Shown: piece after piece, positions 43-57,200 of the stretch
Position numbering within the stretch: the first letter of the stretch is position 1
Layout: each line of letters starts with the position of its first letter
Assembly: GCA_000146465.1 (NCBI GenBank)
Contig: CP001943.1
DNA: 64,000 nt
Reading direction: 5' to 3' (one strand)
Position numbers and translations under genes: made by a program
The notes under the pieces: model-generated
What the model saw: only the letters and a program-made list of their open reading frames with translations
Database searches by the model: none
What the model was told of the DNA's origin: nothing

Positions 43-1239
43 ATGCTTATTGAAGGAACAGTGGCAACACCAATAGAGGAAGAGAGATTAATATTTTTGT
101 GCATGGCTTTGGGGATCCGACTGGAAGAGGCTGTTAGGAAGTGCAGTGGGATAGTTCAGGATAGCAAGTCTATAGGATATCTGGGAGTTGTTTCCTTTCG
201 ATATCTGCTGTCTATTGGCCACTACACTGTCATTGATCCGGGATACATTAACAGAGGAAACCCTGGATCATTTCTTGCAATGGTGTATCTAAGCAGATGT
301 ATTGATAACAGTGGTGCTTTGGAGTCTCTTGAGTCCTATTCAACAAGATATGGAGAGGGGAACCCGGAAGCATGCAGGAAGATTGGAGGTCCTGAGAATT
401 GCGCAAAGATCATGAGCCATCTAATGAAGTTTCTTAGAGATAACATCGAAGATGAATTTTCTTCACAATTGGTTCAGAAAGTGGTTAGAATCTGCCCTTC
501 TTCTGTAAGTCCCGAGGTCGTGAGGTTTATCGATGAATTTGTATGGAAAAATGTCAGGAATATCAATTCACCTCAAGCTTATGGATATCTACTTGATGTG
601 CAAGGACTTGTTTTTCTGAAGACAGGAGACAATACCTGGATTCTGAATCTTGTGCAGGTTGTGCTAAGCGAAGAGATATTCGAAATATATTCCTCTTCAC
701 TATTTCTTCTTGCCATTGTTGTTCTGCACTCATCTGGAGACTTCTCACCTGTTGTAGAAATAATAAGACAGGAGAGCCTGTGGAAAACTAAGGAGCTTCT
801 TCTAAGTATGGTTTGCCTTACAGTATCCCTTTTCAAGACGGGGAATTGCAGCAAGGAGCAGGTGGACTACATTGTTGAGTATCTGCTAGGAGTCAGCATT
901 CATCATGCCTATGTTCTTCTCACCAACACAGTTGTTTCGGGAGATTATCTGAAGTGGATCAAGGGAGAAAACATAGAAGAGGAATTTGTGCTAGCTTGTG
1001 CACTGAAGAAAAGGGGCTTGATCAGCGAAGAGATGTACAAGGAGATATACACCAGGAGTCTTCAGTATTTTGAAAAGAATTTTGTGTCGAAAAGAAATGC
1101 CCGGCGGGTTCTGAGAGGGCTGGGATATGGGATGGAAAGCTTTGGGAGGAGTGAAGCTTACGGGGTAATGGAAAGAAACAAACACAGTATAGGCTATGAA
1201 AACATTCCTTTCAGTGTAGCCGTTGCCTTTGAGCTCTAA
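43..1239 (+). CDS. Hypothetical alpha-helical repeat protein. The frame is open back to position 1, so the gene may be 5'-partial, although ATG 43 is preceded by a GGTTTTTGG...GGGG promoter-like motif.
   Basis: 398-aa ORF in a dense, gap-free gene array. The helical, low-complexity-free sequence gives no confident family assignment by eye. Confidence 0.45.
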   Translation: MLIEGTVATPIEEERLIFLCMALGIRLEEAVRKCSGIVQDSKSIGYLGVVSFRYLLSIGHYTVIDPGYINRGNPGSFLAMVYLSRCIDNSGALESLESYSTRYGEGNPEACRKIGGPENCAKIMSHLMKFLRDNIEDEFSSQLVQKVVRICPSSVSPEVVRFIDEFVWKNVRNINSPQAYGYLLDVQGLVFLKTGDNTWILNLVQVVLSEEIFEIYSSSLFLLAIVVLHSSGDFSPVVEIIRQESLWKTKELLLSMVCLTVSLFKTGNCSKEQVDYIVEYLLGVSIHHAYVLLTNTVVSGDYLKWIKGENIEEEFVLACALKKRGLISEEMYKEIYTRSLQYFEKNFVSKRNARRVLRGLGYGMESFGRSEAYGVMERNKHSIGYENIPFSVAVAFEL

Positions 1240-18817: not shown

Positions 18818-19369
18818 ATGAAGATTTTGGTCACAAGAACAGTAAAGATCCCAGAGGGCTGCATTGTGAAGCAGGAGGGGAAAGTCTTTACATTCGAGGG
18901 CCCGAAGGGAAGGATAGTCGAGGACTGTACTCGACATCCGCTAACATTTGATATCTATGAGGGGAATGTCCGAATCCGACTCTGGAATGGAAAGAGAAAG
19001 GCTGCAGCTCTTGCAATAACGGTCGAGTCTCTTTTGAAAAATGCAGTCAAGGCCGTCACAGTTGGATTTGCATACACTCTGAAAGCAGCATACAACCATT
19101 TTTCTATAAACATGGAGGTCAAGGAAGATGGAAAAGTCCTCCTTGTGAAGAACTTTCTTGGAGAGAAGAACATCAAGGTGTTTAGGATGCGTGGAGTGGC
19201 AAGGGTTAGACTGGACGAAAGGAAGGATACAATAGTGATTGAGGGCCCATCTCTGCCGGATGTTTCCCAGAGTGCAGGGACAATCTCCAACGAATGCAAG
19301 GCTAAGAACCGAGACAGCAGAGTGTTCCTTGACGGAATCTTTGTTACAGAGAGAGGCATCATGGCTTGA
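18818..19369 (+). CDS. RPL9: 60S ribosomal protein L9 (uL6)
   Basis: MKILVTRTVKIPEG…GVARVRLDERKDTIVIEGPSLPDVSQSAGTI…KDSRVFLDGIFV matches uL6. The ATG is preceded by AAAAATTTTATCCCTA. Confidence 0.85.
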   Translation: MKILVTRTVKIPEGCIVKQEGKVFTFEGPKGRIVEDCTRHPLTFDIYEGNVRIRLWNGKRKAAALAITVESLLKNAVKAVTVGFAYTLKAAYNHFSINMEVKEDGKVLLVKNFLGEKNIKVFRMRGVARVRLDERKDTIVIEGPSLPDVSQSAGTISNECKAKNRDSRVFLDGIFVTERGIMA

Positions 19370-26423: not shown

Positions 26424-28313
26424 ATGGGAATCTGCAGGAACAAGGACTTTGTAATAGTCTCTGAGAAAAACGAAATTCTAATGATGGATATTATGACACT
26501 CTCTGTGTTCCACAGAAGAGAATGTGGAGTTAACTCACCTGTGGCATGCAGCAACGAGTATGTATTTATTGGAGATGGATGTGGGGTTATGGCACTGGGT
26601 CTTCTCGATCTGAAGGAAAGGGAGGTATGCAGAATGAAAACACCTGTAACTGCCATTTTCCACCTGGATGGGTTTATATATTGTGGAAGTGAAGAGGGAA
26701 CTATCTATGTTTATGGAGGAGGGAGAAAAGAAGATGGAGATGTGGGTGAGGGAAAGGATTCCATGGATTTTCTAGGGTCTGAGCTTTCAAACGAGATGTT
26801 TTCTATGGATGACGGGGGATTTAAGCTTGTGAAAACCATGAAACATCCTGGGCCGGTGACTCAAATTTGTAGTGATGGGACAGAAGTGTTTGTGGCGGAT
26901 ATGAGGAACAAAGTAACGGTCTATCCATCCAAGAAAACCTATGACATCAAAAACCCTAAGCTTGCTTACAAGAATTACATATTTGCAAGCGAAAGGAACA
27001 TGCTTTATTGCAAAACGCGAAATGCATTTGCAACCTACCTGACAACGGAGAAACCGATAAGTGGCTACACCTTCAGCATGAATGGAGGAGTTTTATTTGC
27101 ACAGTGTAGAGATACCGTGGATGTTGTTGACTTCAATACCAAGAAAGTTGTAAAGAAGGTGGAGGTTGCAGGGAAGTTTGTATATGATGATGTTAGAGAC
27201 AGGTTGGTGTGGTTTGATGGAAAAAGACTTGTAGCTGTTGAGAATGTTCTCGAGAGGGAATATAAGGGGATGGATGGGATAATGTTTAGAGAGGATGGAC
27301 TTGTCGAGAAGAAGATCAAGATTGATGAAGAAATGGATGAGAATATTGTAGAGAAATACAGAGAAGATGGATTGTGGAAGAAGCCTCCGAAAAGGAAGTA
27401 TTTTAGAGCATCGTCGGAGGGAGAGAATGGATTAGGAGAAGGAGGGGAAGAGAAAAAAGAAGTGGTTGATCCTGACGAATGGGTGGAAGAAGCGAAGACA
27501 AAAGGAAAGGATAGTCTTGGGAGATCCAAGTTAGAAGCAGAACCTGGGAGTCTTCTATGCTATAATACCGAGGGCTATATGACTTGTATTGGGGATGAAG
27601 AAAGAGGTAGAATAGAAATCAACTACCATGATGTTTCTCGAAGAAGAATCGAGGTGGATGGTATCCAGGGATGTACTATAGGAAGTTTTTGCCAAGATAA
27701 CATTATAGTAGGAAATGGGAAGAAGATCTTTTATATCGGGCCATCCTCTCGATGGGAGAAAGAAGTTGAGGCAAGTATTGTTTCCGTGTCTGAGAAGATG
27801 GTGGTTTCCTTCTCTGGAGAGCTTCGGGTCTTTGGCCTTGACGGGTCCGAGATGCTTAACTGTCTTATTCCAGATGTAAGTGCCATATGTTGCCGTTCCG
27901 ATATCATTGTGGTGTTTTCACGAGAGATAATTGTGATTGATCTGTTTAAATCAACCGAAAGATTCTTTCTTCCATCTCCAGTGGACTTTGCTTGCTTCGA
28001 TGAAGGTGAAAAGGTTTTTTACAGAATCAACGGGAAAATGTACCAGCTTTATAAGGGACTTTCTGTTAGGGTGTGTGAAGCCCCGAAACAACCGCTAGCT
28101 GTGTTCAAGGGGAATGTGATTTCCTTAGGGCCTTCCAGAAGGTTGTTTCCATCTCCACATGTTGAATACACCCAATTCGATGTATTTGATCCATGCAGGT
28201 CCAAGGAGCCGATGGGTTCTACTGAAGATGAAGAAGTCCTCTGCAGTGAAGATTATGAGAACAAGAATGTAGAGGTGAGTAAGAGCAAGAGGTACAACCC
28301 CCTTAAGAAATAA
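26424..28313 (+). CDS. Hypothetical beta-propeller/WD-like protein with an acidic C-terminal tail
   Basis: 629-aa ORF with repeated …GTIYVYGG…-type blades. The ATG is preceded by GAAATATTTGCAG…CC. Confidence 0.45.
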   Translation: MGICRNKDFVIVSEKNEILMMDIMTLSVFHRRECGVNSPVACSNEYVFIGDGCGVMALGLLDLKEREVCRMKTPVTAIFHLDGFIYCGSEEGTIYVYGGGRKEDGDVGEGKDSMDFLGSELSNEMFSMDDGGFKLVKTMKHPGPVTQICSDGTEVFVADMRNKVTVYPSKKTYDIKNPKLAYKNYIFASERNMLYCKTRNAFATYLTTEKPISGYTFSMNGGVLFAQCRDTVDVVDFNTKKVVKKVEVAGKFVYDDVRDRLVWFDGKRLVAVENVLEREYKGMDGIMFREDGLVEKKIKIDEEMDENIVEKYREDGLWKKPPKRKYFRASSEGENGLGEGGEEKKEVVDPDEWVEEAKTKGKDSLGRSKLEAEPGSLLCYNTEGYMTCIGDEERGRIEINYHDVSRRRIEVDGIQGCTIGSFCQDNIIVGNGKKIFYIGPSSRWEKEVEASIVSVSEKMVVSFSGELRVFGLDGSEMLNCLIPDVSAICCRSDIIVVFSREIIVIDLFKSTERFFLPSPVDFACFDEGEKVFYRINGKMYQLYKGLSVRVCEAPKQPLAVFKGNVISLGPSRRLFPSPHVEYTQFDVFDPCRSKEPMGSTEDEEVLCSEDYENKNVEVSKSKRYNPLKK

Positions 28314-28383: not shown

Positions 28384-28455
28384 GGTGGTATGGTCTAGTG
28401 GTATGACGCTTGCTTAGGGTGCAAGAGGTCTTGGGTTCGAGTCCCAATACCGCCC
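28384..28455 (+). tRNA. tRNA-Pro (anticodon AGG)
   Basis: Cloverleaf: acceptor GGTGGTA/TACCGCC, D-arm GTCT-AGTGGTA-TGAC, anticodon arm CTTGC-TTAGGGT-GCAAG, T-arm TTGGG-TTCGAGT-CCCAA. A TTTT terminator follows. Closely resembles eukaryotic tRNA-Pro. Confidence 0.85.
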
Positions 28456-28520
28456 TTTTGCTTGTGCTTCCAAACACAGGGGAAAGAATTCTTCTGTTCT
28501 CTCTAAAATATCCAATTAAT

Positions 28521-29074
28521 TTATTTTCGAGTCTCCTTGGACTTCTTGTTAAACTTCTCGGTATAGAACTTCAGCTCGCTTCCCTGCAGAACATGTCCCA
28601 GAGCTGCTCCTGCCTGCCCAGGTCTTGAGGTGATGATTCCATATAGATGTCCTTTTTCAAAATTCTCATGCAACTCAGGATCAGTGCTGCTTCCTATCGT
28701 CTCGATATCCTCTTTGAATGGTTCTGCCTCAATCTTAACAACAGAGCTCTTCGTTAGAGTATTGGTACGAACAAGATCGTTGGAGCTGGGATGGTACACA
28801 ACCTGCAGAAGCTTGGATGCTCTAGTCTTCCCAGTGCTGGGGAATCGAAAGTACCCAACATCCAGCCTCAAAGCCTTATATTTCTTGTTTCCACCTCTCA
28901 CTCTAACAGGAATCACCCTCCTTTCCCCTATCTTTGTTGCACTCGGCTGAGATCCTGCCCTGTTGTTGCGCTTCTTGCGGCTGATTACAGCCTTTGCTCC
29001 CGTCTTCCTACGCTTGTGGTCTCCTCGATGGTTTATTCCTAAAATTAATCTTCCTTCGGAGATCACTTACCCAT
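28521..29074 (-). CDS. RPS8: 40S ribosomal protein S8e, intron-containing. Exon 1 is 29071..29074 (ATGG) and exon 2 is 28521..29038.
   Basis: The spliced product starts MGINHRGDHKRRKTGAK…VRVRGGNKKYKALRLD…, which is eS8. In the unspliced frame a TAA sits just upstream of GINH. The ATG is preceded by CAGAAAAAATTTGCCCTGAA. Confidence 0.85.
29039..29070 (-). other. Spliceosomal intron (32 nt) in RPS8, after ATG-G
   Basis: Minus-sense sequence GTAAGTGATCTCCGAAGGAAGATTAATTTTAG. It has a canonical GTAAGT donor and a TTAATTTTAG branch/acceptor block. The phase gives M-G-I-N. Confidence 0.75.
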
Positions 29075-29075
29075 T

Positions 29076-29333
29076 TCAGGGCAAATTTTTTCTGCTCTCT
29101 TTATTGGAGTCTGCCTCGCTTTCATTCGGCTCCTCAGGGTTCTGAGATGTGCTGGGCACAAGTACTTCCATAGTCTTCTTTCCAAGTTCTGCCATCTCAT
29201 TTCCAGTTGCTTCCATCGCCTCCTTGATGGTTTCCATGTCAAGCTTCAATATCTTGTCTCTACGCAGTCCCATGATAAAGGCAGTAAGAGACGCTAAGAA
29301 CACGGTTGTTATAAAAGCCATCTTCAGCGTCAT
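29076..29333 (-). CDS. Small single-TM membrane protein (hypothetical)
   Basis: MTLKMAFITTVFLASLTAFIMGL TM helix followed by a charged tail. Upstream TATATTTTTTTTGATG motif. Confidence 0.35.
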   Translation of the reverse strand: MTLKMAFITTVFLASLTAFIMGLRRDKILKLDMETIKEAMEATGNEMAELGKKTMEVLVPSTSQNPEEPNESEADSNKESRKNLP

Positions 29334-38590: not shown

Positions 38591-38930
38591 CAAGAGCAAA
38601 AGAGACAAAAATAAAACATTACAATAAAAGACTAGTCGGAACACAGCAAAGCCTTGTTCCAAAGGGAACATCTGTCATCAATGAGATGAAGAAACATCTC
38701 GGCTTCCATTTGGCTTGCTGCCACAACTCGTCATTCTAGCCTCGTGGGAATGCAATTGCTGCATTGTGACGTTTCTGGTTAACTAAACAAATGATTCTGA
38801 ATAGTATCCTCGACGCAAGGGCATAAGGCTCCTCGGAATTTATCTACCATTCAAAACGTTTTTCTACGTTCAGGAGGCAGAATTGCTTCTTCTGCAGTAA
38901 CTCCTTAAAAGCGAAAAGAACACCCAGAGC

Positions 38931-45481: not shown

Positions 45482-47518
45482 ATGGCCCGAATTAAGATAA
45501 GCGGAGTTCCTATCGAGATGCCGTTTGAGCCGTATCCTGCACAGATAGTGACGATGACAAAGCTTATATCCTGTCTGACGACAGGAACAAGCGGACTGGT
45601 GGAGAGTCCGACAGGGACTGGAAAGAGCCTATCTATAATATGTGCAGTGCTGGGATATAGTGAATACTTGAAGAGAGGAGCCAAGAGCATCAATGTCAAG
45701 AGAAGAGAGGGGGGGAGTTTGAAAGGAGAAGAGGCAAAGGAGGAGAAGCTGAAGATAATTATATGCTCGCGCACACACAAACAACTTGACCAATTGATTG
45801 AACAGCTTAGGAAAACACATTACAGGCCAAGGATCTCGATCTTGGCAAGCAGGAGCCAGTATTGCATATCACCTAAGCTAGGGGATGTTACAGACAAGAA
45901 CACAGGGTGCAACGAGTTGGTGAAGAGCGGGAGTTGTGCTTACTTCACGGGAAAGGACAGGCTTGCAAAAAGGGTTGGAGACAGGATATTTGACATAGAG
46001 GAGTTGAAAGGGGAGGGCCGGAGATGTGGTGGATGTCCCTACTATGCATCGAGGATCTTGAATGAGGATGCAGAAGTCATATTTGCTCCATATAACTATC
46101 TGATTGATTCCAGAATAAGAGAAAACACAGGAATTAGCCTTGAAAACAGTGTGGTCATTGTTGATGAGGCACACAACATAGAGGATGTATGCCGATCGTC
46201 GGGCTCGATTGAACTTAGCTCGCGGACTATCGAGATAATCCAAAACGAGATTCTAGGGGCAATAAGGAGGAGCGGGATGCTAGGAGAGATCAAACTGGAC
46301 TTTGTCAACCTCATGGACTTCTTTAGGAAGCTTCGAGAGGGGGCAGAGAGCACAGACGGGTTTGACAGAACTACGTTTGGAGGGAAGCTCCGGATAAGGA
46401 AGGGGAAAGAGATAAAGGATGAGCTTGAGAAGATGGGAATAACTAAGGAGTTTGTTTTAAAGATCAAGAATTCAATATACGCAATCCAGAAGAATGAAGA
46501 TGCAAAGGACCTGCTGAACATGAGTACATTCCATGTACTGGAAGGTCTTGACTCTGTCTTGTCTGCAATTCATTTCAGCGGATGCGATGCGTATTCGTTT
46601 GTGTTCCAGAAGACGAACGACGAAAACATAAGAAACTCGAGGTTATCCAAGTTTTCCTACAACTTCTGGCTACTGGATGCGGGTTATACATTCCGATCGT
46701 TTGTTGGGAAGGTGCGGTCGATTGTACTTCTGTCTGGAACCTTGACACCTTTTTCTTCGTTTTCATCGGAGTTGGGGCATGACTTTACTCATTCGATTGT
46801 TGCACCTCATCTAGTTACGGAAAAACAAGTATTTGCTTCGTGTGTTCGGAAAGGACATCTGCTGAAGGACCTGACTGGAACCTATGGGGTTTCGGACACA
46901 CCCCAATATCTGGACCAACTTTCTAGAATCATAGTGGATGTGTCGAACAAGGTCAAGAGCCATGGGGGAACATTGGTGTTTGTACCGAGCTATAGCTTCT
47001 TGGAGAATCTGCAGAAGAGAATGGGAGGAGAGAGTTCGGGGTTGTTGATTGAACCAAAAAGCGGGGGAGGAAATGAGTTTGAAAAGGTGATGAAAAGATA
47101 TAAGAACAGAATAGCAACAAAGCAGAGGGCAATATTCATGTGTGTCTACCGTGGGAAGGCGAGTGAAGGAATCGACTTCAAGGATTCCTTTGCAAGGGCT
47201 GTTATTGCTGTTGGAATTCCCTATCCAAGCCTACATGATCCGCAGGTAGAACTTAAGAAGGAGTTTAACGACAGATACAAAAGCTTCAATGGACGGCTCT
47301 GGTACGAGGCACAGGCGTTTCGAGCAGTGAATCAAGCACTTGGACGAGCAATCCGTCACAAAGACGATTGGGGGATTGTGATGCTCCTTGACAGCAGATA
47401 TTCGGAGAAGAGAGTACAGACTCACCTGTCCAAGTGGGTTACAGACAACATCAGGGTTCATGACTCGTATGACACCTGTGCCTCTGAGCTCTCTGGATTT
47501 CTGTCTTTGATTAAATAG
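45482..47518 (+). CDS. Rad3/XPD-family Fe-S DNA helicase, RTEL1-like
   Basis: N-terminus [21 protein letters not shown]…[21 protein letters not shown] parallels RTEL1 [21 protein letters not shown]…[21 protein letters not shown]. Four Cys for the Fe-S cluster (C…C…C…C), a DEAH box ([10 protein letters not shown]) and C-terminal helicase motifs are present. 678 aa. Confidence 0.75.
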   Translation: [678 protein letters not shown]

Positions 47519-54223: not shown

Positions 54224-57200
54224 ATGAACCGGAACTATTTGAAGAACCTCTATCTCCAGCAACTCGAATCGGAACGGTATTCAGATGTATTCCGAGAAAG
54301 CCTACATAGCCTAGTGTCTGTGGAAATAATGAATACCGTTATACTCTTGGCTGTTAAGGATGATGACGAGGATGCACTCATCGATCTTCTGGAGTTGTTT
54401 CTGCAACATCTAGAGACCAACCCTATATTTTATGAGAAACTTGGGAAATCAAACCTTCACTTACTTCTGTTGGAACGTCCACTGAGGATGCAGAGCTACA
54501 CAAAACTAAAGTTGGTTTATGATAAGGTTAGGCCCAAGAGAACTCCACTAAGCTTTGAGCATACAGAGTTTCTCGCCAAAAACTTTTACAATTACTGTCT
54601 CTACAAGTACGCATACAATGATTATCAGTTCGACCTTGAGATGTCTGTGGAAGGATTTGGGCCGGTGGAGATGAATTTGTTCAAAGATCTCCTTAGGAAG
54701 ATATGCATTGAAAATAGAGAGAACGAGCATCTTGCTAATTATGTAAGAACTCTTCCCATGGACACAAATGTCTTTCTTGCTATAGTGGAGCCGGATTTCA
54801 AGGTAGATGCATCGAAGCTTGAGCCAGAGGATTTATTTGTTGTGTACCCAGCTCAGGTCCAAAGATGTAACCTGGGCTTGTTTACAAAGCCATTTCTTTG
54901 CAGTTTGAACTCTAAGGAGGGTCTTTGCAGAGTTTGTGGGAGAAGAGTTCTAGAATACCACTTTGAGGAGATCGACCACGAAGAATACCTGGAAAGTATA
55001 GCAGGAAATATCAAAGAGATATGTTTTGCTGTAAGTCATTGGGAAAAGGCCAGAACGCCTCGGGTGCTTATAACTGTTCTCAGGTCTCTGTTCAAAGGAT
55101 GCGAAGATCTCGAATGTTACAAATCCCTAAAGTACTTTCCGGTGAAAGAGGAGAGCGATATGGAGGATATAGTTGTAAAGTTCTTAAGATATGCAGCAAG
55201 CACATTGAACATTGAGAACATCCAGGTATCCCTCAGGATGCTTCCGTTTACAAGCCACACCCCAAAAGTAATATTTTCATACTTTGTTATTTTATTTGAA
55301 AGCTTACGAAAGTATCCGGAAAATGGGTTTTTGAGAAGCATAGTAAAGAATGTGGTGATGAGGAACAAGGACAAATTTATGAAGATAAGAGCAATGATAT
55401 TTGAATACTATATGAAGGGGGACGAAGAGTCGGTGTTTGACATTCCAAATAGAGAAAAAGAGGGAAGAGGCTTGAAGGATGGAAAGGACTTTAATACAAG
55501 CATAAGCGATAGACTTGAACGTAGACTTGCACCGTTGTCTGAATTCTTCAGCGAGGAGTGCGGATCTTTCGTTAAAAACAACATGTTCTACATATATCCT
55601 ATCATATACTCACTATGGCTTCCTCGTTGCACCCAGGATCTTGGATTTACTCAGGCAAATAACCACTTTCTAGTAATATCGCTTTGCCTCCAAGGGGAAG
55701 AAAGCAGAATAGATGAAATAGGATATGAAAAAGACGAACTGTATGGAATGGGGGTTGATGTAATTGTTCCCCTTTTGTGCAACGGATACTTCAAATATGA
55801 TATTCTGGAAAGGTTTTTTGGGGATACTCGGAAGTATATAAGCATCCACTTACCGAAGTTTTTATTTGCATTGAAGAAGGTGTATGTAGAAAGACCTTTT
55901 GAGTTTCGAGTATGTGTGTTTAAGGTTCTGAAGTGCATTATAGATGCAATTTCCAACAATGTGAAGATGTTGTTCAACTATCTATTTCCGTTTGTGGAGT
56001 TCTTTATGAGAAAACATGAAGACTCGTGTGGAATGGATTGCAAGATGATTTTCATTGAGTATTATTCATCATTTTTTGAGAACGATTGTTTTATCCGAAA
56101 CATGCCCAGGATATTTCCATATTTAGACGTTGAAAAGATAGTGAAGTGGAGCAATGCAAAGAATGAGGAAGACTACCTGGATATAGTCCTTGGGCTTTTG
56201 AACACCAAAGGGCACTTTTCACAGGAAATGGCCACCTCTAAAGCGGTGGAACTTCTTACAAGGGTCTTTGGAAGTATAGATAAAGATGGAGTGCTTGATG
56301 AAGAAAGCTTTGTGGAAAACATTCTTACCCGATTCTTTAAGAGCCCTACGTTTAGAATTAAGGTTGGGAGTATCTACAGGCGACTTAGAGAAGTGGAAAG
56401 TGATGCAGCATTCCTGATTGGATGTATATCACAGGAGTTTCTGGAACCAGAGATCCATCCCTCTGTCTGTGACGTTCCTATTATGGGGAATACTCCGGAA
56501 GCAATTGCTAGAGTGATGATTGAAAGGTATCTACTCGAGATAGATCCTGGAAAACAAGATCTTCATTTTTTCATAATACAGGAGACTTTAAAGTTTATTA
56601 GAGGGCCTTTAAGCGACAGTATAGAAGAAGTTGTTGATCAGTTTAGAAACACACAGTATCTCTATGAGCACGTGCCTACATATTCAACGGAGAAGTTGTA
56701 TGAAAAGACACATACATTTAAGAAGTTCCTCGAAAGGCTGTATCGGCACACCCTCTCAGAAGTTGAAAGGAGGAACAAAAAGGAATATTTTAATCTTCTT
56801 AGATATGGAGATCTGCTTGGGATTCCGTTTCTGGAGTTCCATTGCTTGTCCCTGTGCAGGCTACTTCTAGATTCGGGAGACAGCAGAGTTGCAGGGATTG
56901 CACAGAATATATCCCAGGACCTCGAGGGGGGAGTGGACAGAAAGATTGCAAGGTTTGTTCTGAAACTACACAGGTTCACAGAAGGGAAGTATGTTCCAGA
57001 TCTTGTGATACTCAGGATATCTATTTTTCTCAAGGACCATTATAACGCTATCCAGGTTTTAGAGAAGATGATAAGAAAAGAAAGGAGAAGGGATCTCTTT
57101 GATCTCCTCCAATACAACTACTATTGGATCAAGGACTATGACAAAGTACTAGGAATAAACTCGGTATTTGGGAGACCAACACTGATCAACCTTTTTTTTG

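What the first reader, a model, noticed from the sequence alone, without database searches (positions are those of the whole stretch)
28521..29074. RPS8 carries a 32-nt intron after ATG-G with a canonical GTAAGT donor
In the unspliced frame the eS8 body (GINHRGDHKRRKTGAK…) is preceded by TAA. Upstream, ATGG is followed by GTAAGTGATCTCCGAAGGAAGATTAATTTTAG. Splicing gives ATG-GGA-ATA-AAC = MGIN…, matching the eS8 N-terminus MGISRD…. The intron ends in the same TTAATTTTAG block as the RPS17 intron, arguing for a shared branch/acceptor consensus.
Basis: partly seen in the sequence, partly recalled or inferred. Interest (0 to 1): 0.6.

Follow-up and report, generated by a model that had tools for sequence, protein, structure and literature searches.

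The report
Known 32-nt intron in microsporidian RPS8
The window is from the parasite Encephalitozoon intestinalis, and the tiny 32-base intron just after the start codon of ribosomal protein gene S8 is real, but it is already annotated and its counterpart in a sister species is already published, so it is ordinary.

Summary
On the minus strand, ATG-G (29074..29071) is followed by a 32-nt GTAAGT…TTAATTTTAG segment (29070..29039), then an ORF (29038..28521) with no internal Met.

- **Product.** Removing the 32 nt gives a 173-aa protein. It is 100% identical to the NCBI entry '40S ribosomal protein S8 [Encephalitozoon intestinalis ATCC 50506]', whose gene span (554 nt) already includes the intron. 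It is 82% identical to E. cuniculi ECU02_0880 (PDB 7qep_S8).
- **Orthologues.** E. cuniculi (31 nt), E. romaleae (33 nt), Ordospora pajunii (32 nt) and two unassigned microsporidian contigs (31 and 22 nt) carry an intron at the same point. Nosema bombycis and Vairimorpha apis read ATGGGAAT(A/C)AAT uninterrupted, which is the predicted junction.
- **Older origin.** Amanita and Umbelopsis RPS8 also have an intron after CDS nt 4, so the position is probably ancestral.
- **Literature.** Peyretaillade 2009 lists E. cuniculi S8 with the same AAAAAAATTTGCCCTGAA signal and '(intron)'. Corradi 2010 states that E. intestinalis shares E. cuniculi's introns.
- **Shared 3' block.** The block shared with the RPS17 intron (17518..17496) is the published TAAYTT branch consensus.

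Interest is low. Splicing in E. intestinalis RNA could not be checked here.

The parts
29083..29091 (-). AAATTT-like signal (AAAAAATTT) of microsporidian ribosomal-protein gene promoters
   Evidence: Sequence and coordinates. Peyretaillade 2009 Table 1 gives essentially the same string (AAAAAAATTTGCCCTGAA, one more A in the run) as the signal upstream of E. cuniculi 40S S8. It is conserved in all five Encephalitozoon/Ordospora loci.
29075..29082 (-). CCC-like motif and very short leader (GCCCTGAA) directly before the start codon. It also holds the TGA stop (29078..29076) of the upstream 85-aa ORF.
   Evidence: The CCC-like motif marks true start codons in E. cuniculi, where 5'UTRs are shorter than 7 nt (PMC2803860).
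29071..29074 (-). Exon 1 of RPS8: ATG plus the first base (G) of codon 2
   Evidence: This is the same four bases in all orthologues.
29039..29070 (-). 32-nt GT-AG spliceosomal intron, phase 1. The 5' splice site GTAAGT is at 29070..29065 and the branch/acceptor block TTAATTTTAG at 29048..29039.
   Evidence: The NCBI gene span of 554 nt for a 173-aa product implies a 32-nt intron. Orthologous introns of 31, 33, 32, 31 and 22 nt lie at the same position. [quoted passage not shown]
28521..29038 (-). Exon 2 of RPS8 (codon 2 bases 2-3 through the stop TAA at 28523..28521)
28520..28525 (-). AATAAA polyadenylation-type signal overlapping the stop codon
   Evidence: Peyretaillade 2009 Additional file 2 lists 'ECU02_0880 AATAAA -5' for the E. 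cuniculi orthologue, the same arrangement.
17496..17518 (-). Comparison intron: the 23-nt RPS17 intron GTAGGTGGAAGCTTTAATTTTAG directly after the ATG (17521..17519)
   Evidence: The E. cuniculi S17 gene is listed with '(intron)' and the signal AAAATTTTTCACCCCAAGA.

Best explanation
This is the RPS8 (eS8) gene of Encephalitozoon intestinalis. It is interrupted after the fourth coding base by a genuine, miniaturised U2-type GT-AG spliceosomal intron of 32 nt.

**Proposed mechanism.**
1. Transcription starts a few bases upstream of the ATG, behind the ribosomal-protein promoter signals AAATTT and CCC.
2. The reduced microsporidian spliceosome recognises G|GTAAGT through the ACUUACC 5' end of U1.
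3. It recognises the branch site in TTAAT. The branch adenosine lies only about 6 nt from the 3' splice-site G.
4. Splicing joins ATG-G to GA-ATA-AAC to give MGINHRG….

Splicing is obligatory for making the protein. The unspliced message encodes only MGK*, and the body has no other ATG.

**Origin.** The intron is inherited. It lies at a position shared with other microsporidia and with Amanita and Umbelopsis RPS8, and it has been lost precisely in some Nosema/Vairimorpha lineages.

**Shown here:** the sequence anatomy, the identity of the product, positional conservation, and the intron-less junctions in relatives.

**Inferred:** the snRNA contacts and the actual splicing in E. intestinalis, taken from literature on E. 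cuniculi.
For: - **Sequence and reading frames.**
- **Product identity.** The spliced product is eS8: Pfam E = 5.7e-42 and 7qep_S8 (E. cuniculi ribosome) at E = 1.1e-91 over 1-173. It is 100% identical over its full length to the NCBI E. intestinalis ATCC 50506 S8 protein.
- **Source.** The window differs by 1 base in 6554 from an E. intestinalis assembly, in which the gene is called as 554 nt for 173 aa.
- **Orthologous introns.** They are 31 nt (E. cuniculi), 33 nt (E. romaleae), 32 nt (O. pajunii), 31 nt (Logan SRR21633403) and 22 nt (Logan SRR31860986). All follow ATGG, all start GTAAGTG, and all end in TAAYTTTAG or the close variant TAATAATTTAG. The length varies (22 and 31-33 nt), is never a multiple of 3, and the middle of the intron varies in sequence.
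- **Intron-less relatives.** N. bombycis and V. apis read ATGGGAAT(A/C)AATCAC right after their AAATTT/CCC signals.
- **No alternative start.** There is only one Met in the product.
- **Chance.** The strict motif is expected 0.005 times per window.
- **Ancestral position.** The same intron position occurs in Amanita muscaria and Umbelopsis ramanniana RPS8.
- **Literature.** E. cuniculi S8 is listed with this very upstream signal and '(intron)' (PMC2803860). E. intestinalis shares E. cuniculi's intron complement, found by manual detection (PMC4355639). TAAYTT is the branch consensus (PMC2483917). Encephalitozoon U1 carries ACUUACC (PMC5499648). All annotated E. cuniculi introns were confirmed as spliced by RNA-seq (PMC3629993).
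Against: - No RNA evidence for E. intestinalis itself could be reached with these tools.
- ECU02_0880 is absent from the per-gene expression table of the E. cuniculi RNA-seq study, so gene-specific splicing could not be read out.
- Short E. cuniculi introns are reported to be spliced at low levels, under 20% on average (PMC6349667), so most transcripts may stay unspliced.
- One other annotated E. cuniculi ribosomal-protein 'intron' (27 nt, in frame) was found unspliced by 5'RACE. Annotation alone is therefore not proof, although that case lacks the features present here.
Confidence: 0.95

Rival explanations
1. The 32 nt are not removed. Instead, eS8 is translated from a non-AUG start in the body frame, for example GUG at 29066, giving an N-terminally extended protein MISEGRLILGINHRG….
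For: the ORF listing (bacterial code) finds such a GTG-initiated ORF at 28521..29066. Short microsporidian introns are reported as poorly spliced.
Against: - The ATG 8 nt upstream sits in the canonical AAATTT-CCC start context.
- With 5'UTRs under 7 nt, a scanning ribosome would meet that AUG first.
- Intron-less relatives encode MGINHRG directly.
- MGI(N/S) is the N-terminus in the eS8 chains of solved eukaryotic ribosomes and in the database homologues.
- The segment has full splice signals, conserved in five further loci, and a variable middle.
Confidence: 0.02
2. The interruption is an assembly or sequencing frameshift, or the gene is a pseudogene.
For: A short out-of-frame insertion right after the start codon is what a frameshift artefact would look like in a single sequence.
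Against: - The same structure is present in independent assemblies of E. intestinalis and E. cuniculi (two assemblies), and in E. romaleae, O. pajunii and two Logan contigs.
- The body is intact and highly conserved, at 82-84% amino-acid identity within the genus.
- eS8 is an essential single-copy ribosomal protein, and it is present in the solved E. cuniculi ribosome.
Confidence: 0.01
3. The intron is real but works chiefly as a throttle. This adds to the best explanation rather than excluding it. Inefficient or regulated removal would limit how much translatable eS8 mRNA is made, possibly depending on life stage, and the sequence between the splice signals would be constrained for that purpose.
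For: - Unspliced mRNA is untranslatable for eS8, giving MGK* with no other ATG.
- Low splicing levels of short introns are reported in E. cuniculi.
- The internal intron sequence, outside GTAAGT and TAAYTTTAG, is 59-82% identical between species, against 35-65% at four-fold sites of the same gene.
- Corradi 2010 reported the same trend genome-wide.
Against: - Only one of six species pairs is individually significant (E. cuniculi vs O. pajunii, p = 6e-4), and the counts are 17-18 nt.
- There is no conserved secondary structure in the intron: consensus energy -0.84 kcal/mol, with one covarying pair.
- Some relatives have lost the intron without apparent harm.
- Low splicing may simply reflect a degenerate spliceosome.
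Confidence: 0.2

Closest known systems
RPS8 intron of Encephalitozoon cuniculi (ECU02_0880)
   Same: It has the same gene, the same position (after ATG-G, phase 1) and the same upstream signal AAAAAAATTTGCCCTGAA. It also shares GTAAGTG at the 5' end, TAATTTTAG at the 3' end, and AATAAA overlapping the stop codon.
   Different: It is 31 nt rather than 32 nt. It has CTAAT rather than TTAAT at the branch site. Six of the 17 internal alignment positions differ.
[quoted passage not shown]
   Same: It shares the length, GT-AG boundaries, GTAAGT, the TAAYTT branch motif a few nt from the AG, and a location at the extreme 5' end of a ribosomal-protein gene.
   Different: Nothing distinguishes it. It is a typical member.
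First intron of fungal RPS8 genes (Amanita muscaria, Umbelopsis ramanniana)
   Same: The insertion point is identical, after CDS nt 4 in phase 1, with ATGG|GT…AG|G.
   Different: The fungal introns are 54 and 82 nt, and those genes carry four further introns each. Pneumocystis jirovecii lacks this intron. Shared position suggests common descent but does not prove it.
5'-proximal introns of Saccharomyces ribosomal-protein genes, some used for autoregulation
   Same: Both are introns concentrated in ribosomal-protein genes of an intron-poor genome, close to the start codon, with near-invariant splice signals. This comparison rests on my own knowledge and the abstract of PMC3315480.
   Different: Yeast RP introns are hundreds of nt long. 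Whether yeast RPS8 has an intron, and whether the microsporidian RPS8 intron is regulatory, were not tested here.

Membership tests
U2-type (GT-AG) spliceosomal intron | GT at the 5' end and AG at the 3' end | tested here: met
   GTAAGT…TTTTAG at 29070..29039.
U2-type (GT-AG) spliceosomal intron | Removal restores a continuous reading frame that encodes the conserved protein, while retention breaks it | tested here: met
   The spliced product is the 173-aa eS8, 100% identical to the database protein. The unspliced reading is MGK*. The length of 32 nt is not a multiple of 3.
U2-type (GT-AG) spliceosomal intron | 5' splice site complementary to the 5' end of U1 snRNA | tested here: met
   G|GTAAGT is the exact complement of ACUUACC, which Belkorchia 2017 report for Encephalitozoon U1, including E. 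intestinalis. The U1 gene itself was not examined here.
U2-type (GT-AG) spliceosomal intron | Spliced RNA observed | not testable with these tools
   No read data were available. For E. cuniculi, RNA-seq confirmed all annotated introns, but ECU02_0880 is missing from the per-gene table.
Encephalitozoon short-intron class | Length within 22-76 nt (23-47 bp for the 14 introns first annotated in E. intestinalis) | tested here: met
   It is 32 nt.
Encephalitozoon short-intron class | [quoted passage not shown] | tested here: met
   TTAATTTTAG lies at 29048..29039, with the second A of TAA 6 nt before the terminal G. The residue before TAA is T rather than the commoner C.
Encephalitozoon short-intron class | Orthologous intron at the same position in sister species | tested here: met
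   Seen in E. cuniculi, E. romaleae, O. pajunii and two Logan contigs. The literature lists an intron for E. cuniculi and N. ceranae S8.
eS8 (Ribosomal_S8e, PF01201) | Full-length match to the family profile and to eS8 chains of solved ribosomes | tested here: met
   143.6 bits against a cut-off of 30.2, and 7qep_S8 at E = 1.1e-91 over 1-173.

The most novel reading that the evidence does not exclude
The bases between the splice signals of this mini-intron may be under purifying selection, stronger than at synonymous sites of the same gene. The reason would be that the intron acts as a tunable gate on eS8 synthesis, for example through feedback by eS8 or stage-dependent splicing, rather than being a passive relic. 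The data here show only a weak trend, and Corradi 2010 already reported the general pattern of conserved introns.
Probability: 0.1. Interest if true: 0.45.

Novelty: already known. Interest (0 to 1): 0.07.

Why it matters
It matters little as a discovery. The intron is in the public annotation of E. intestinalis, and the E. cuniculi counterpart was listed in 2009.

Its value is as a check on the scan. A reader without tools correctly recovered a 4-nt first exon and a 32-nt intron from raw sequence, and correctly inferred the shared branch/acceptor consensus.

There is a small practical point. Gene callers that ignore such introns produce N-terminally wrong eS8 models in related species. Examples are the truncated V. 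ceranae entry and the read-through ORF in a Logan contig.

The comparison made here also adds modest context for why this intron survived genome reduction. The intron position is shared with Amanita and Umbelopsis, and the intron was lost precisely in N. bombycis and V. apis.

Tried and rejected
- **Other introns in the window.** A loosened pattern (GT[AG]NGT…TAAYT…AG) gave five hits. Only the RPS8 and RPS17 hits sit directly behind an AAATTT-CCC-ATG start signal, and these two are the only ones supported as introns. I judged the other three (55031..55083 +, 45778..45749 -, 27038..26965 -) to be chance matches.
- **Conserved RNA structure in the intron.** RNAalifold on five orthologues gave -0.84 kcal/mol and one covarying pair, so I rejected it. 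A single-sequence hairpin pairs UUUGCCC with GGGUAAG (z = -2.4). It would lie largely upstream of the reported transcription start, so I did not pursue it.
- **Gene-specific splicing level for the E. cuniculi orthologue.** ECU02_0880 is not in the Grisdale 2013 expression table, and no paper in the library mentions that locus tag.
- **Papers not held.** Lee et al. 2010 (the primary description of constrained E. cuniculi intron structure) and Pombert et al. 2012 are not in the library.
- **Rfam scan.** It found only two tRNAs and a U3 snoRNA in the window, and no spliceosomal snRNA.
- **Selection on the intron interior.** A trend is present, but only one of six species pairs is significant.

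Full report
**What is in the sequence**

The feature lies on the minus strand.
- ATG is at 29074..29072 and is followed by G at 29071.
- Next come the 32 bases GTAAGTGATCTCCGAAGGAAGATTAATTTTAG (29070..29039).
- Then GAATAAACCATCGAGGAGAC… continues as an open frame to TAA at 28523..28521.
- Read without splicing, the ATG frame gives MGK*. The body frame is closed upstream by the TAA inside GTAAGT.
- Joining ATGG to GAATAAAC gives a 522-nt CDS and a 173-aa protein, MGINHRGDHKRRKTGAK….
- That protein contains no methionine other than the first. The body therefore cannot be translated from any in-frame AUG unless the 32 bases are removed.
- The strict pattern GTAAGT-N(8-40)-TAAYTTTAG occurs once in the 64-kb window on both strands together, against 0.005 expected in 200 Markov simulations.

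**What the gene and the organism are**

- The spliced product matches Pfam Ribosomal_S8e at 143.6 bits, against a cut-off of 30.2.
- It aligns end to end with eS8 of the solved E. cuniculi ribosome (7qep_S8, E = 1.1e-91). It also aligns with eS8 of other microsporidian, fungal and animal ribosomes. The N-terminal alignments printed (four chains) start MGIN/MGIS or, in 6rm3, with the extended …LGINHRG.
- In the large protein collection, the top hit is 100% identical over 173 of 173 residues. NCBI names it '40S ribosomal protein S8 [Encephalitozoon intestinalis ATCC 50506]'.
- The next hits are E. romaleae (84%), E. cuniculi ECU02_0880 (82%) and Ordospora pajunii (75%).
- The window differs at one base in 6554 from an E. 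intestinalis assembly (GCA_051312795.1). That base is at 28402, inside the neighbouring tRNA-Pro gene.
- In that assembly the gene is called as a 554-nt range for a 173-aa product. This is 522 nt of CDS plus 32 nt, and it does not translate directly.
- The public annotation therefore already contains exactly this intron.

**Comparative test of the splice**

I fetched the orthologous loci and aligned their 5' ends. All are syntenic.

| Source | Sequence around the splice | Intron length |
|---|---|---|
| E. intestinalis (window) | ATGG\|GTAAGTGATCTCCGAAGGAAGATTAATTTTAG\|GAATAAAC | 32 nt |
| E. cuniculi | ATGG\|GTAAGTGGGCTTTGAAGAAGACTAATTTTAG\|GAATAAAC | 31 nt |
| E. romaleae | ATGG\|GTAAGTGAGCCTTCAAAGGAAGATTAACTTTAG\|GAATAAAC | 33 nt |
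| O. pajunii | ATGG\|GTAAGTGGGCTTTGAATGAAGCGTAATTTTAG\|GAGTAAAC | 32 nt |
| Unnamed Encephalitozoon-like contig (Logan SRR21633403) | intron at the same position | 31 nt |
| Nosema-like contig (Logan SRR31860986) | ATGG\|GTAAGTGAAAATAATAATTTAG\|GAATCAAT | 22 nt |
| Nosema bombycis | ATGGGAATAAATCAC, directly behind its AAATTT/CCC signal | none |
| Vairimorpha apis | ATGGGAATCAATCAC, directly behind its AAATTT/CCC signal | none |

- Length varies (22 and 31-33 nt) and is never a multiple of three.
- The ends are fixed and the middle varies.
- The two intron-less relatives carry the predicted exon-exon junction written into DNA.
- Together these features are the signature of a real intron, and they exclude a frameshift artefact.

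**Start-codon context**

- The 17 bases before the ATG are AAAAAATTTGCCCTGAA (29091..29075).
- Peyretaillade et al. 2009 (PMC2803860) defined an AAATTT-like signal followed by a CCC-like motif as the hallmark of microsporidian ribosomal-protein gene starts. They measured 5'UTRs of under 7 nt.
- Their Table 1 gives AAAAAAATTTGCCCTGAA for E. cuniculi 40S S8.
- Their Additional file 3 marks that entry, and the N. ceranae orthologue, with '(intron)'.
- The same scan in this window finds the signal in front of RPL7A, an unidentified ORF at 18818 (+) that is probably RPL9 by E. cuniculi gene order, RPL35A, RPS8 and RPS17. Only for RPS8 and RPS17 does the direct reading stop after a few codons.
- The AATAAA overlapping the stop (28525..28520) also mirrors the E. 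cuniculi entry 'ECU02_0880 AATAAA -5'.

**The shared 3' block**

- The RPS17 gene (ATG at 17521..17519, minus strand) has a 23-nt intron, GTAGGTGGAAGCTTTAATTTTAG (17518..17496).
- Splicing it gives [10 protein letters not shown]…, which matches Pfam Ribosomal_S17e at E = 1.7e-36.
- Both introns end in TTAATTTTAG.
- This is the published branch-site consensus. Irimia and Roy 2008 found TAAYTT in 13 of 13 credible E. cuniculi introns, with CTAAYTT in 9 (PMC2483917).
- Heinz et al. [quoted passage not shown] Both introns match it.
- The branch adenosine would lie about 6 nt from the terminal G. That is the very short, fixed branch-to-acceptor distance described for intron-poor genomes.

**How it most likely works**

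- The donor G|GTAAGT is the perfect complement of ACUUACC, the 5' end reported for the U1 snRNA of Encephalitozoon species, including E. intestinalis (PMC5499648).
- The branch motif is a wobble-tolerant version of the yeast-type ACUAAC. This last point rests on my own knowledge of U2-branch pairing.
- Splicing by the reduced major spliceosome joins the 4-nt first exon to the body.
- For E. cuniculi, RNA-seq confirmed that all annotated introns are spliced (PMC3629993). Short introns, however, are removed inefficiently, under 20% on average (PMC6349667).
- The steps shown here are the anatomy, the product, the conservation and the intron-less junctions.
- The steps inferred are the snRNA contacts and actual splicing in E. 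intestinalis.
- I could not obtain a gene-specific splicing level, because ECU02_0880 is missing from the per-gene table of that study.

**Where the intron comes from**

- I mapped the introns of three fungal RPS8 genes by fitting the annotated protein to the gene DNA.
- Amanita muscaria (54 nt) and Umbelopsis ramanniana (82 nt) both have their first intron after CDS nt 4 in phase 1. This is exactly the microsporidian position.
- Pneumocystis jirovecii does not have it.
- The microsporidian intron is therefore most simply a retained, miniaturised ancestral intron. It has been lost precisely in N. bombycis and V. apis.
- Independent insertion at a G|G site is not excluded by three genomes.

**Anything beyond the ordinary?**

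- The intron interior, excluding GTAAGT and the last 9 nt, is 59-82% identical between species pairs. Four-fold degenerate sites of the same gene are 35-65% identical.
- Only E. cuniculi versus O. pajunii is individually significant (p = 6e-4), and the counts are small.
- Corradi et al. 2010 already reported genome-wide that Encephalitozoon introns and intergenic spacers are more conserved than synonymous sites. [quoted passage not shown]
- No conserved secondary structure is present in the intron.
- A regulatory 'throttle' role remains possible but is unsupported here.

**Verdict**

- It is a typical member of the known Encephalitozoon short-intron class.
- It is already in the public annotation, and its E. 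cuniculi orthologue is in the literature.
- Novelty: already known. Interest: low.

Noticed in passing
window 17496..17521 (-): RPS17 has a 23-nt intron directly after its ATG (GTAGGT…TTTAATTTTAG), behind the signal AAAAAATTTTCACCCCAAGA. The spliced product matches Ribosomal_S17e at E = 1.7e-36. It is also a known intron, listed for E. cuniculi S17.
   Followed up: yes
window 29076..29333 (-): An 85-aa ORF with no Pfam match ends at a TGA just 1 nt before the RPS8 ATG. The RPS8 AAATTT/CCC promoter signals therefore lie inside its last codons. Short ORFs are called at the same place in E. cuniculi (59 aa), O. pajunii (65 aa) and a Logan contig (83 aa), with varying 3' ends.
   Followed up: partly
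window 28384..28455 (+): tRNA-Pro(AGG) lies convergent with RPS8, 65 nt beyond its stop. The only base that differs between this window and assembly GCA_051312795.1 over 6.5 kb (window 28402) falls inside this tRNA gene.
   Followed up: no
window 38630..38813 (-): There is an Rfam match to U3 snoRNA (ACEA_U3, 57.2 bits, gathering score 55).
   Followed up: no
window 15855 (+) onward: RPL7A starts behind AAAAAATTTTACCCTCAA and reads MVLGKVKKIPAMAPK… with no canonical intron motif. In E. cuniculi an in-frame 27-nt 'intron' was annotated in a ribosomal-protein gene (probably this one, L7A/ECU02_0750i) and was found unspliced by 5'RACE (PMC2803860).
   Followed up: no
L008 (Logan SRR31860986) 178..747; PDB 6rm3 chain SI0; P0035 (V. 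ceranae): Several eS8 models of Nosema/Vairimorpha relatives look like products of a missed intron. P0010 reads through it (…KWVSENNNLGINHRG). The 6rm3 eS8 chain has extra residues before LGINHRG. The V. ceranae entry starts only at MAATKIG.
   Followed up: partly
window 29065..29086 (-): In a single-sequence fold, UUUGCCC (the promoter CCC motif) pairs with GGGUAAG (start codon plus 5' splice site), with z = -2.4. It would matter only in read-through transcripts from the upstream gene, because normal 5'UTRs are reported as under 7 nt.
   Followed up: no
Supplement of PMC3629993: ECU02_0880 (E. cuniculi RPS8), ECU02_0740 and ECU02_0750 are absent from the published per-gene FPKM table, although neighbouring genes are present.
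   Followed up: partly
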